Part shown: positions 37,533-38,275 of the stretch, piece after piece
Layout of the letters: every line of letters starts with the position of its first letter
Numbering within the stretch: position 1 is the first letter of the stretch
Source of the DNA: a virus
Taxonomy: Duplodnaviria > Caudoviricetes
Direction: 5' to 3' (one strand)
Length of the DNA stretch: 58,903 nucleotides
IMG/VR virus record: IMGVR_UViG_3300025066_000029
Span: 1-58,903 of that record
Translations under genes and position numbers: made by a program
Notes under the pieces: model-generated
What the model saw: only the letters and a program-made list of their open reading frames with translations
Databases searched by the model: none
Told to the model about the DNA's origin: nothing

Positions 37533-38275
37533 AGGTCAGCCTTCGTGACCTTAAGGATAATCCAGCAATGGGATAAAGTGATACACTCTAAAGGGAGTGT
37601 GTTGCGATGTGTGATTTATCATGCATTTCGCTGAAAGGTAATGTACTATCTACAGCATGGTGAGCTTGTGCCCTAACGGGTGATGCTCAGTGTTGTAGAT
37701 TCCTCAACAGGTGAGGGATTGAGTGTGAAAGCACAATAAGAATTACATTAGTTAATGATAGTACTGGTTTGCCAACCGGGAAGTTGTTAACAGGAAACTA
37801 CTAATCTTCGATAGAAATATCATGGTGCTTGTAGTCTACAGTAATTAAGCGTGGCAGCTGAACACAGGAAGAAGTTGAATCTAAACTACTCAAAAGGTAG
37901 CATGGTTCTGTAATCTTTGCGTCTTCTTCTTATTACCTGAATCCTTTACTAAATTTCAATTTAGAAAAGCACAATTGCAAGGAGCTTGTTGGTGCAAATG
38001 TACCTATCTCTACTGCCTCTTCGGAGAATATGTAGGCACTTGAAGTTCGCAAGACTGATAGTGAGTTGAACAAGTAAGTACTAAGTTGAGTTGGGAGACT
38101 CTTTATCCTTACCAGAGGAACTTGTATTGAACGGAATACTATAAACCAACAATGCAGTAGCAGCACATGCTTTAAATGTGTGTACGTGTGAGATACTTAT
38201 GGGTAACTGTAAGTGTGTGTAAGAGTTAGAAATGACTCTAAAATTCTCGCATAAAAGGTCAACACTCATCCTTTT
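37533..38275 (+). ncRNA. large ornate RNA, GOLLD-like
   Basis: ~740 nt without a plus-strand ORF and with more than a dozen visible hairpins; CTACTCAAAAGGTAG hairpin and 3' GAG...ACTCTAAAA...TAAAAGG...CTCATCC recall GOLLD RNA (from memory, unverified). Confidence 0.6.

What the first reader, a model, noticed from the sequence alone, without database searches (positions are those of the whole stretch)
37533..38275. GOLLD-like giant RNA in a crAss-like phage
Seen: ~740 nt with dense hairpins, including ATACACTC/GAGTGTGT, ATCTACAGCA/TGTTGTAGAT, CCTCA/TGAGG, CTAC-TCAAAAG-GTAG, ATACTTAT/GTAAGTGT, AGAGTT/GACTCT and AAAAGG/CCTTTT. Known: GOLLD and ROOL RNAs are large phage-associated RNAs of unknown function often near tRNAs. 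The GOLLD call rests on remembered motifs; if it fails, this is a new large RNA.
Basis: partly seen in the sequence, partly recalled or inferred. Interest (0 to 1): 0.72.

Follow-up and report, generated by a model that had tools for sequence, protein, structure and literature searches.

The report
Divergent GOLLD RNA in marine phage
A 750-base gene-free stretch of this ocean phage genome encodes a distant relative of GOLLD, a giant folded RNA known to assemble into hollow RNA-only cages, which extends that still unexplained RNA class to crAss-like phages.

Summary
Window 37531-38275 (+) is an ORF-free, about 750-nt structured RNA gene.

Rfam's GOLLD model (RF02032) aligns end to end (positions 1-416) to 37867-38272. 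The score is 83.1 bits, E 1.9e-21, which is below Rfam's gathering score of 150, so a standard Rfam scan lists nothing. ROOL does not match.

Two motif scans of IMG/VR gave 28 distinct full-length relatives, 48-62% identical to the window. Those whose terminase I tested came from 112-123 kb phages with distant crAss-like terminases.

Covariation across the 29 sequences supports both halves:
- 5' half: 65 of 77 pairs show compensatory change, and 94.9% of cells pair against 32-48% in slid controls.
- 3' half: 57 of 71 pairs show compensatory change.
- GOLLD pseudoknot: 26 of 29 sequences form 7 or more contiguous pairs, with 21 distinct helices.

None of 16 relatives tested reaches Rfam's threshold, whereas canonical GOLLDs in the same collection score 266-283 bits. 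Sub-models of the 5' domain do not match those canonical loci.

Contigs from four metatranscriptome runs (two studies) lie on 37541-38264.

The gene sits in an RNA island with a tmRNA-like gene and tRNA-like genes. It is a divergent member of a known class. The cage mechanism is inferred, not shown.

The parts
37531..38275 (+). Whole GOLLD-class RNA gene (about 745 nt; U-rich tail to 38285)
   Evidence: nhmmer finds full-length relatives covering query 4-757. ORF-free. Fold z -3.50 on + against -1.22 on -. RNA-library contigs lie on 37541-38264.
37531..37861 (+). 5' domain: 14 helices, multi-helix junctions
   Evidence: Alignment A2 of 29 sequences. 77 predicted pairs, 65 with compensatory change. 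94.9% of cells paired against 32-48% when slid; covariation score 0.67 against 0.07-0.13; 0 of 500 shuffles as high.
37534..37550 (+). Helix 1 hairpin (GGTCA / TGACC) with conserved 7-nt loop GCCUUCG
   Evidence: 5 of 5 pairs show change on both sides.
37539..37543 (+). Helix-1 loop bases that may pair with 37635-37639 (tertiary or intermolecular contact)
   Evidence: 94.3% of cells paired against 39-53% when slid. Two pairs covary: CCUU/AAGG, CUCU/AGAG, CCAU/AUGG. Few independent events.
37635..37639 (+). Partner strand of the candidate loop-linker pairing (AAGGU)
37637..37752 (+). 5' junction sub-domain with the hairpin UUGAG-UGU-GAAA-GCA-CAAUA (37719-37738)
   Evidence: Model R1 (115 positions, 33 pairs) scores 113 bits here. 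It finds the same sub-domain at the expected place in 3 of 81 other pattern-1 loci and in 14 of 23 divergent pattern-2 loci. The motif itself was part of search pattern 2, so its invariance in the set is by construction.
37867..38272 (+). 3' domain = match to Rfam GOLLD RF02032, model 1-416
   Evidence: 83.1 bits, E 1.9e-21, gathering score 150. In alignment A3, 71 predicted pairs, 57 with compensatory change.
37886..37900 (+). Hairpin CUAC-UCAAAAG-GUAG (conserved GOLLD loop)
   Evidence: Aligned to the model's UCAAAAG loop. The stem covaries. The loop was part of both search patterns.
37931..37964 (+). Variable A/U-rich linker between the closing helix 37867-37874/37923-37930 and AAAAGCA (37965-37971)
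   Evidence: Length varies widely among the 29 sequences. One relative (L098) carries a tRNA 3'-half-like insert there. An RNA-run variant has extra bases at 37943-37960.
37986..37993 (+). Pseudoknot 5' strand (UUGUUGGU)
   Evidence: Aligned to the pseudoknot of RF02032. Pairs with 38145-38152. 26 of 29 sequences have 7 or more contiguous pairs, 21 distinct helices.
38145..38152 (+). Pseudoknot 3' strand (ACCAACAA)
38016..38026 (+). Window-specific insertion (CCUC-UUCG-GAG mini-hairpin) inside a loop that reads UGUAAUAU in most relatives
   Evidence: Present only in the window among 29 sequences. Contigs of RNA runs X14 and X20 carry a different sequence before 38038 (loose ends).
38253..38285 (+). 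Terminal hairpin AAAAGG-UCAACACUCAU-CCUUUU and U-rich tail
   Evidence: Aligned to the last helix of RF02032, with its CUCA loop motif kept. Covaries. Not flagged as terminator-like because it has only 2 G-C pairs.
34748..34887 (+). Context: tRNA gene with a 78-nt insert in the anticodon region
   Evidence: Rfam tRNA 42.2 bits. Not called by ARAGORN.
39077..39403 (+). Context: tmRNA-like gene
   Evidence: Rfam RF00023 37 bits (gathering 47), E 3.5e-13, model 1-374. An RNA-run contig lies on 39103-39273.
39407..39479 (+). Context: tRNA-like gene with an abnormal anticodon loop
   Evidence: Rfam tRNA 34 bits. ARAGORN reports 'tRNA-???' with anticodon (tt).

Best explanation
Window 37531-38275 (+ strand) encodes a divergent member of the GOLLD class of giant structured phage RNAs. 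It has three parts:
- a 5' domain of about 330 nt with 14 helices;
- a short variable linker;
- a 3' domain of about 400 nt that keeps the helices of the Rfam GOLLD model, its long-range pseudoknot and its conserved loops.

Shown here: homology of the 3' domain, evolutionary conservation of the structure in both halves, and the presence of the sequence in RNA libraries.

Inferred from the solved GOLLD env-38 structure (Kretsch et al. 2025, PMC12286853, passages read): the RNA acts without translation, by folding and assembling with copies of itself into a hollow shell. In that structure the 3' domains form the ring, the 5' domains form the cap and the linker faces inward.

It is made by a lytic crAss-like marine phage from an RNA-gene island that also holds a tmRNA-like gene and tRNA-like genes. 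This fits the published idea that such cages deal with tRNAs, ribosomes or other translation components during infection. What the cage does remains unknown for the whole class.
For: 1. **Rfam match.** RF02032 aligns over model 1-416 to 37867-38272: 83.1 bits, E 1.9e-21; E 7.6e-21 on 9 kb.
2. **Pseudoknot.** 37986-37993 pairs with 38145-38152 (8 bp). In 26 of 29 related sequences the two segments form 7 or more contiguous pairs, with 21 distinct helix sequences. In 18 of 29, at most 5 of 200 shuffles reach the observed length.
3. **3' half.** 71 predicted pairs, 57 with compensatory change.
4. **5' half.** 77 pairs, 65 compensatory. 94.9% of cells pair against 32-48% when slid, and 0 of 500 shuffles score as high.
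5. **Relatives.** 30 of 136 fetched loci carry the full-length element (28 distinct), 48-62% identical to the window.
6. **Not coding.** No + strand ORF of 30 aa or more in the window, and no frame spans the element in the 29 sequences.
7. **Strand.** Fold z is -3.50 on + and -1.22 on -.
8. **RNA libraries.** Contigs of 4 metatranscriptome runs (3 samples, 2 studies) lie on 37541-38264. Nine of the 12 pieces on the element have 0-1 differences. Contigs of all four runs begin at 37549 or 37550 with no loose end at that place, which is a weak hint of an RNA end or of a strain break point.
9. **Context typical of GOLLD.** The element is in a phage with tRNA genes nearby, and the linker is variable, holding a tRNA-like fragment in relative L098.
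10. **Phage type.** Terminase and head protein match crAss-like phages at 27-33% identity. The terminases of five complete 112-123 kb relatives match the window's terminase at 25-26% identity. The one checked against GenBank (G001, the record of L021) also has crAss-like best hits.
Against: - The score is 67 bits below Rfam's gathering score, so the curated membership criterion is not met. Canonical GOLLDs in the same collection score 266-283 bits (8 of 20 loci). 0 of 16 relatives of the window reach 150 bits, and only 2 of 6 were listed at E 0.001 or better in a 51-kb search.
- Sub-models of the 5' domain (R1, R2) hit 0 of the 7 canonical loci that have upstream sequence. A shared 5' domain is therefore not shown. 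I could not compare with env-38, the only GOLLD with a solved structure, because I hold no sequence of it.
- Multimer formation was not tested. The window also has an 11-nt insertion in a loop that is conserved in relatives, which could alter a contact.
- The RNA evidence is contigs only: no strand, no ends, no level, and DNA carry-over in RNA libraries cannot be excluded.
- Relatives were found with motif patterns, so the invariance of UCAAAAG and UUGAG-GAAA-CAAUA in the set is by construction.
- The genome search with RF02032 on the window's own record found nothing, but its controls did not ring either, so that result is uninformative.
Confidence: 0.8

Rival explanations
1. It is a separate class of large phage RNA that shares only the 3' module with GOLLD. 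It would have its own 5' domain, and therefore its own quaternary form and possibly its own function, and would be confined to lytic crAss-like marine phages.
For: - 83 bits against 266-283 bits for canonical GOLLD.
- 0 of 16 relatives reach Rfam's gathering score.
- An nhmmer profile of the family finds none of the canonical loci.
- 5' sub-models hit 0 of 7 testable canonical loci.
- The 5' motif TGAGNNNGAAANNNCAA is absent from all 81 other pattern-1 loci.
- None of the 31 pattern matches in 185,579 species genomes is related.
Against: - The published description of GOLLD already allows a 'less conserved 5' region' on a 'universally conserved 3' region' (PMC12286853, passage read).
- The whole 3' model aligns without truncation, pseudoknot included.
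- That paper names a conserved GAAA loop (L11a) in the 5' cap of the marine env-38. This family also has an invariant GAAA hairpin, so its 5' domain may be the known environmental type.
- The genome scan was limited to one exact pattern.
Confidence: 0.12
2. It is a cis-acting element of a longer transcript. For example, it could be a processing or stability platform for the neighbouring small genes and the tmRNA/tRNA-like genes, rather than a free-standing RNA.
For: - It has the same strand as all flanking ORFs.
- No promoter-like or strong terminator-like site bounds it; the next terminator-like site is at 38643-38676.
- Self-cleaving ribozymes flank the element in 4 of 16 relatives, which suggests release from longer transcripts.
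Against: - Being cut out of a longer transcript is compatible with a free functional RNA.
- About 750 nt of conserved ornate structure with a GOLLD 3' domain exceeds any known leader.
- Flanking genes differ among relatives: the search for related loci found no relative of the upstream ORF.
- RNA-library contigs lie on the element.
Confidence: 0.05
3. It is a chance cluster of hairpins or a degraded coding region with no RNA function.
For: AT-rich intergenic DNA often gives hairpins, and minus-strand ORFs of 62-77 aa overlap the region.
Against: Compensatory changes occur in 122 of 148 predicted pairs across the two halves, with slid and shuffled controls far lower for the 5' half. Rfam E is 1.9e-21. 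No conserved ORF.
Confidence: 0.01

Closest known systems
GOLLD RNA (Rfam RF02032; env-38 solved as a D7 homo-14-mer cage, Kretsch et al. 2025, PMC12286853, passages read; original description by Weinberg et al. 2009 recalled, not held)
   Same: - The 3' domain aligns to the whole model, including the UCAAAAG loop, AAAAGCA, the CGCAAG loop, the pseudoknot and the terminal CUCA hairpin.
- Two-domain layout with a variable linker.
- Size class of about 750-830 nt.
- Phage-borne and near tRNA genes.
- A tRNA-like insert in the linker of a relative.
   Different: - 83 bits against 266-283 bits for canonical loci, and below the gathering score of 150.
- The 5' domain is not matched in canonical loci.
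- Shorter than env-38 (about 750 nt against 833 nt).
- The carriers checked are crAss-like phages, and the run search found the window's DNA in marine metagenomes.
- No relative was found in bacterial genomes by the one pattern tried.
- Oligomeric state unknown.
ROOL RNA (Rfam family; homo-octamer cage in the same paper)
   Same: A large, ornate, phage-associated RNA, often near tRNA islands, that forms an RNA-only cage (PMC12286853 and PMC5737381, passages read).
   Different: No match to any Rfam family other than GOLLD in 36800-39000 at E below 0.9. Per the paper, ROOL has a different fold in which the 5' and 3' parts are intertwined.
GOLLD in Mycobacterium tRNA arrays (Morgado et al. 2020, seen only as reference 29 of PMC12286853; PMC6582537 seen as a search listing)
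   Same: A GOLLD-class RNA embedded among tRNA genes.
   Different: Those are in bacterial chromosomes or plasmids and were found with the Rfam model. This one is in a lytic-type phage genome and falls below the Rfam threshold.

Membership tests
GOLLD (RF02032) | Score at or above Rfam's gathering score (150 bits) | tested here: not met
   83.1 bits. Not listed in the gathering-mode scan.
GOLLD (RF02032) | Significant, untruncated alignment to the conserved 3' domain | tested here: met
   Model 1-416 of 416, E 1.9e-21 and 7.6e-21.
GOLLD (RF02032) | Long-range pseudoknot of the 3' domain | tested here: met
   8 bp, 37986-37993 with 38145-38152. 26 of 29 relatives have 7 or more bp, with 21 distinct helices.
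GOLLD (RF02032) | Helices of the 3' domain kept by compensatory change | tested here: met
   57 of 71 predicted pairs show change on both sides in 29 sequences.
GOLLD (RF02032) | Large structured 5' domain joined by a variable linker that sometimes holds a tRNA | tested here: met
   5' domain with 65 of 77 covarying pairs. Linker length is variable, with a tRNA-like fragment in L098.
GOLLD (RF02032) | 5' domain homologous to that of described GOLLDs | tested here: inconclusive
   R1 and R2 hit 0 of 7 canonical loci. The literature calls the 5' region less conserved. env-38 was not available for comparison. The shared invariant GAAA loop is only a hint.
GOLLD (RF02032) | Phage or prophage location near tRNA genes | tested here: met
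   The record is a virus record with terminase, portal and head genes. tRNA or tRNA-like genes lie at 34748-34887 and 39407-39479, and a tmRNA-like gene at 39077-39403.
GOLLD (RF02032) | Homo-14-mer nanocage | not testable with these tools
   No RNA 3D or complex predictor was on hand. Needs mass photometry or cryo-EM.
GOLLD (RF02032) | Transcribed, rising in lytic growth | tested here: inconclusive
   Contigs of 4 RNA-library runs lie on 37541-38264. No strand, level or time course.
ROOL | Match to the Rfam ROOL model | tested here: not met
   Not among the matches at E up to 10 on 36800-39000, nor in the gathering scan.
crAss-like phages (Crassvirales and kin) | Terminase, portal and head proteins most similar to crAss-like phages; genome of about 100 kb | tested here: met
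   TerL is 31-33% identical over 81-85% of its length to the 15 human-gut phage records shown (151 records match). MCP is about 27% identical to the same set. The window is 58.9 kb at 59% estimated completeness. No phylogeny was done, so order-level membership is not settled.

The most novel reading that the evidence does not exclude
This family is a distinct, so far unannotated branch of cage-forming GOLLD-like RNAs, with four properties:
- it is carried by lytic crAss-like marine phages, not by prophages;
- it has its own 5' cap domain, and so perhaps a different subunit number or a different gate;
- it is present in ocean and vent RNA libraries;
- it is genetically linked to a phage tmRNA, tRNA-like genes and, in relatives, self-cleaving ribozymes that would cut it out of a longer transcript.

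That linkage would point to a role in taking over or shielding the host's translation and ribosome-rescue machinery.
Probability: 0.3. Interest if true: 0.65.

Novelty: new member of a known kind. Interest (0 to 1): 0.45.

Why it matters
GOLLD is one of very few natural RNAs known to build a closed RNA-only cage, and its function has been open since its discovery.

- **Wider range.** The class reaches further than threshold-based Rfam annotation shows. This is a whole sub-family of at least 29 distinct sequences, none of the 16 tested reaching the gathering score. The carriers checked are large crAss-like phages, and the window's DNA turns up in marine metagenomes.
- **Material for structure work.** The sub-family offers natural sequence variation, at 48-62% identity to the window, for testing which cage contacts are conserved.
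- **In situ evidence.** Metatranscriptome contigs lie on the element.
- **Functional lead.** The repeated genomic company (a tmRNA-like gene and tRNA-like genes here, pistol and hatchet ribozymes in relatives) can guide experiments on function.

I found no paper that mentions GOLLD together with crAssphage or crAss-like phages. Supplements of the cryo-EM paper, which list 806 GOLLD sequences, could not be seen and may already include such phages.

Tried and rejected
- **Whole-window Rfam scan at gathering scores.** It listed only two tRNAs, so by itself it would have 'refuted' the label. The E-value scan shows why: the match is sub-threshold.
- **The genome search with RF02032 on the window's own record.** No match, but none of the 14 control genomes rang either. 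Uninformative.
- **blastn ('distant') against 50,697 GenBank phage records.** No match for the window element or for relative L021.
- **The search for related loci in IMG/VR.** Nothing for the upstream ORF or for the DNA polymerase. Relatives had to be found by RNA motif patterns instead.
- **Genome-contig scan with pattern 2.** It gave 31 stretches. None resembles the family by nhmmer at E up to 10 or by model R1, and 0 of 18 carry a gathering-level GOLLD. I take them as chance matches. The number is about what 21 fixed bases with a 31-step gap would give in 596 billion bases (my estimate).
- **Promoter and terminator scan.** No more promoter-like sites than in shuffles (8 against a mean of 7.7), and no terminator-like site at the 3' end. 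Bacteroidota-type promoters are not covered by that tool, and I did not identify a promoter.
- **Flanks in the RNA runs.** 36000-37473 and 38278-40000 had no cover, except one contig of X18 at 39103-39273.
- **Mapping the cage's inter-chain bridges (B1-B9, L20, L21a/b of env-38).** Not possible without the env-38 sequence and numbering. I looked at loop sequences by eye and reached no reliable assignment.
- **PHROGs on ten flanking small ORFs.** Only two weak or unnamed families.
- **Paper search.** It returned only plant papers (an author name and 'crassulacean'). One search was also uninformative.
- **First filing of the report.** Turned back because one field (confidence) was missing. Resent with the field added and nothing else changed.
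Full report
**What is there.** Between the stop codon of a 105-aa ORF (37209-37526) and the start of a 48-aa ORF (38306-38452), the + strand has no ORF of 30 aa or more. The + strand folds to -209.7 kcal/mol, z -3.50, with 0 of 20 dinucleotide shuffles as good. The reverse strand gives z -1.22, with 2 of 20 as good.

**The direct test of the label.** A whole-window Rfam scan at gathering scores lists only two tRNAs. With E-value reporting on 36800-39000, the GOLLD model RF02032 aligns from its first to its last position (1-416) to 37867-38272: 83.1 bits, E 1.9e-21, against a gathering score of 150 (E 7.6e-21 on 9 kb).

The printed alignment keeps these features:
- the UCAAAAG hairpin loop;
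- the AAAAGCA stretch;
- the hairpin with the CGCAAG loop;
- the helix UACUUAU/GUAAGUG;
- the AGAGUU/GACUCU helix;
- the terminal hairpin with CUCA in its loop;
- the model's pseudoknot, here UUGUUGGU (37986-37993) with ACCAACAA (38145-38152).

ROOL and every other family are absent below E 0.9. The RNA is therefore a significant but sub-threshold GOLLD match.

**Relatives.** blastn against GenBank phages found nothing, and protein-anchored searches of IMG/VR found nothing. Two motif patterns did work:
- Pattern 1 (UCAAAAG, AAAAGCA, UCGCAAG with gaps) returned at least 87 stretches. The table listed L001-L080, and 87 loci were on file.
- Pattern 2 (UUGAG-NNN-GAAA-NNN-CAAUA, gap, UCAAAAG) gave 55 stretches.

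An nhmmer profile of the first seven sequences hit 47 of the 136 loci. Thirty of these were nearly full length, 28 of them distinct (L131 equals L021, L135 equals L104), and 48-62% identical to the window. The whole 750 nt is thus conserved, 5' half included.

Because the patterns fix UCAAAAG and the UUGAG/GAAA/CAAUA motif, the invariance of those motifs in the set is by construction. The rest is not.

**Structure is under selection.**
- *5' halves (alignment A2, 29 sequences).* RNAalifold predicts 77 pairs, 65 with compensatory change. Counted independently, 94.9% of cells pair against 32-48% when the 3' partners are slid by 1-3 columns. The covariation score is 0.67 against 0.07-0.13, and 0 of 500 shuffles reach the observed values.
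- *3' halves (A3).* 71 pairs, 57 compensatory.
- *Pseudoknot.* It is not in the nested prediction, so it was tested separately. 26 of 29 sequences form 7 or more contiguous pairs between the two segments, with 21 distinct helix sequences. In 18 of 29, at most 5 of 200 shuffles do as well; for the window it is 12 of 200.
- *Further candidate contact.* The loop of helix 1 (37539-37543) may pair with 37635-37639. It is 94.3% paired against 39-53% when slid, and switches between CCUU/AAGG, CUCU/AGAG and CCAU/AUGG. These are few independent events. Whether it is intra- or intermolecular cannot be told.
- *Coding.* No reading frame spans the element in any of the 29 sequences.

**How far from canonical GOLLD.** Of 20 other pattern-1 loci scanned at gathering scores, 8 carry GOLLD at 266-283 bits. 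Of 16 loci of the window's family, none reaches 150 bits. Of six scanned at E 0.001 or better, only L021 (116.9 bits) and L056 (84 bits) were listed. The family's nhmmer profile finds none of the canonical loci.

For the 5' half I built two sub-models, because a full model would exceed the builder's size limit:
- R1 covers the junction at 37637-37752. It hits 3 of 81 other pattern-1 loci (L006, L045, L049), each at the right distance upstream of its UCAAAAG. It also hits 14 of 23 divergent pattern-2 loci and 0 of 31 genome loci.
- R2 covers helices 1-4 at 37531-37638. It hits L024 and L079.

Neither model hits any of the 7 canonical loci that have upstream sequence; L044 has none. The relaxed motif TGAGNNNGAAANNNCAA is absent from all 81 other pattern-1 loci.

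By eye, the canonical 5' ends (alignment A5) begin in a loosely similar way: hairpin, GAUAA, hairpin, A-rich stretch, long hairpin. That is an impression, not a test.

The literature already describes GOLLD as a universally conserved 3' region plus a less conserved 5' region. It also names a conserved GAAA loop (L11a) in the 5' cap of the marine env-38 RNA (PMC12286853, passages read). The window's family has an invariant GAAA hairpin too, so its 5' domain may be the known environmental type. I could not test this because I hold no env-38 sequence.

**Who carries it.** The window is an IMG/VR virus record of 58.9 kb, estimated 59% complete, with portal, terminase and major head genes.
- Its terminase matches 151 GenBank phage records. 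All 15 rows shown are human-gut phage records ('uncultured phage cr...' and one unnamed) at 31-33% identity, and the organism tally also names Bacteroides, Flavobacterium, Azobacteroides and CrAssphage records.
- The head protein hits the same set at about 27%.
- Five relatives lie in 112-123 kb records that are 94-100% complete, two of them with terminal repeats. Their terminases are only 25-26% identical to the window's.
- The one checked against GenBank (G001, the record of L021) also has crAss-like best hits.

The RNA family therefore spans deeply diverged crAss-like lineages. The one pattern scan of 185,579 species genomes gave 31 stretches, none related. I found no prophage or chromosomal copy, within the limits of an exact pattern.

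**Expression.** The run search found the DNA in marine metagenomes and part of it in six metatranscriptome runs. Laying four of these (X14 and X20 from one sample, X16, X18; two studies) on 36000-40000 placed 12 pieces on 37541-38264 and one on 39103-39273. Nine of the 12 pieces have 0-1 differences. The others are relatives or strain variants:
- one has extra bases in the linker at 37943-37960;
- X14 and X20 have loose ends before 38038, so their contigs diverge from the window just upstream of that point, in the hairpin that carries the window-specific insertion.

Contigs of all four runs begin at 37549 or 37550 without a loose end there. Contigs give no strand, ends or level, and DNA in RNA libraries cannot be excluded.

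**Context.** The element lies in an RNA-gene island on the same strand as its neighbours:
- a tRNA with a 78-nt insert (34748-34887);
- a tmRNA-like gene (39077-39403; 37 bits, gathering 47, E 3.5e-13, full model, with a tRNA-like acceptor and T arm);
- three bases further on, a tRNA-like gene with an abnormal anticodon loop (39407-39479).

In relatives, self-cleaving ribozymes flank the element:
- a pistol ribozyme starts 6 nt after the 3' end in L021;
- pistol ribozymes lie about 250-370 nt downstream in L092 and L056;
- a hatchet ribozyme lies about 750 nt upstream in L122.

**Mechanism.** Three things are shown: homology to the GOLLD 3' domain, a conserved ornate fold in both halves, and presence in RNA libraries.

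The rest is inferred from the env-38 structure (PMC12286853). There, the RNA assembles with copies of itself into a closed shell. The 3' domains form the ring, the 5' domains form the cap, and the variable linker (sometimes carrying tRNAs) faces the interior. The authors suggest encapsulation of tRNAs, ribosomes or other cargo. The window's company of tmRNA-like and tRNA-like genes fits a translation-related role but does not prove one.

**Verdict.** This is a divergent member of a known class. It is noteworthy because standard annotation misses the whole sub-family, and because it extends GOLLD to crAss-like marine phages. No paper in the searched library mentions GOLLD with crAssphage or crAss-like phages. 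The supplements of PMC12286853 were not available and may bear on this. Interest is moderate.

Noticed in passing
window 39077-39403 (+): A tmRNA-like gene in the phage. Rfam RF00023 scores 37 bits (gathering 47), E 3.5e-13, with the whole model aligned and a clear acceptor stem and T arm. ARAGORN did not call it. A contig of RNA run X18 lies on 39103-39273.
   Followed up: partly
window 39407-39479 (+): A tRNA-like gene 3 nt after the tmRNA-like gene. It has a 6-bp anticodon stem and a very short loop. ARAGORN reports 'tRNA-???' with anticodon (tt). It is possibly a processing signal rather than a decoding tRNA.
   Followed up: no
window 34748-34887 (+): A tRNA (Rfam 42.2 bits) with a 78-nt insert in the anticodon region, possibly an intron. 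Not called by ARAGORN.
   Followed up: no
L021 3451-3512 (-); L092 4605-4666 (+); L056 1434-1498 (+); L122 9177-9379 (+): Self-cleaving ribozymes beside the GOLLD-like RNA in 4 of 16 relatives. Pistol (42-56 bits) starts 6 nt after the 3' end in L021 and lies about 250-370 nt downstream in L092 and L056. Hatchet (55 bits) lies about 750 nt upstream in L122. They may cut the RNA out of longer transcripts. The only paper holding both 'GOLLD' and 'pistol' does not link them.
   Followed up: partly
L098, linker of its GOLLD-like RNA (alignment A3 columns about 99-125): The linker holds a stretch that reads like a tRNA T arm and acceptor end (GGTTCGACTCC...CCA). This matches the published remark that tRNAs sometimes sit in the GOLLD linker.
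   Followed up: no
window 38016-38026 (+): An 11-nt insertion (CCUC-UUCG-GAG) found only in the window among 29 sequences. It sits inside a loop that reads UGUAAUAU in most relatives. Contigs of RNA runs X14 and X20 diverge from the window just upstream of 38038.
   Followed up: partly
3' flanks of L056, L097, L102, L103, L104, L107, L117, L121, L133: A conserved stretch, AATGCACCA followed by TTCT-like bases, lies just after the terminal hairpin in nine relatives. It is absent from the window and unexplained.
   Followed up: no
window 38306-38452 (+): The 48-aa ORF just downstream begins, as I read the DNA by eye, with a hydrophobic signal-like stretch and a Cys in a lipobox-like context. Only a weak PHROG hit of unknown function.
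   Followed up: no
window 14339-19990 (-): An ORF of 1883 aa in the structural block with no PHROG family at E 0.001 or better.
   Followed up: no
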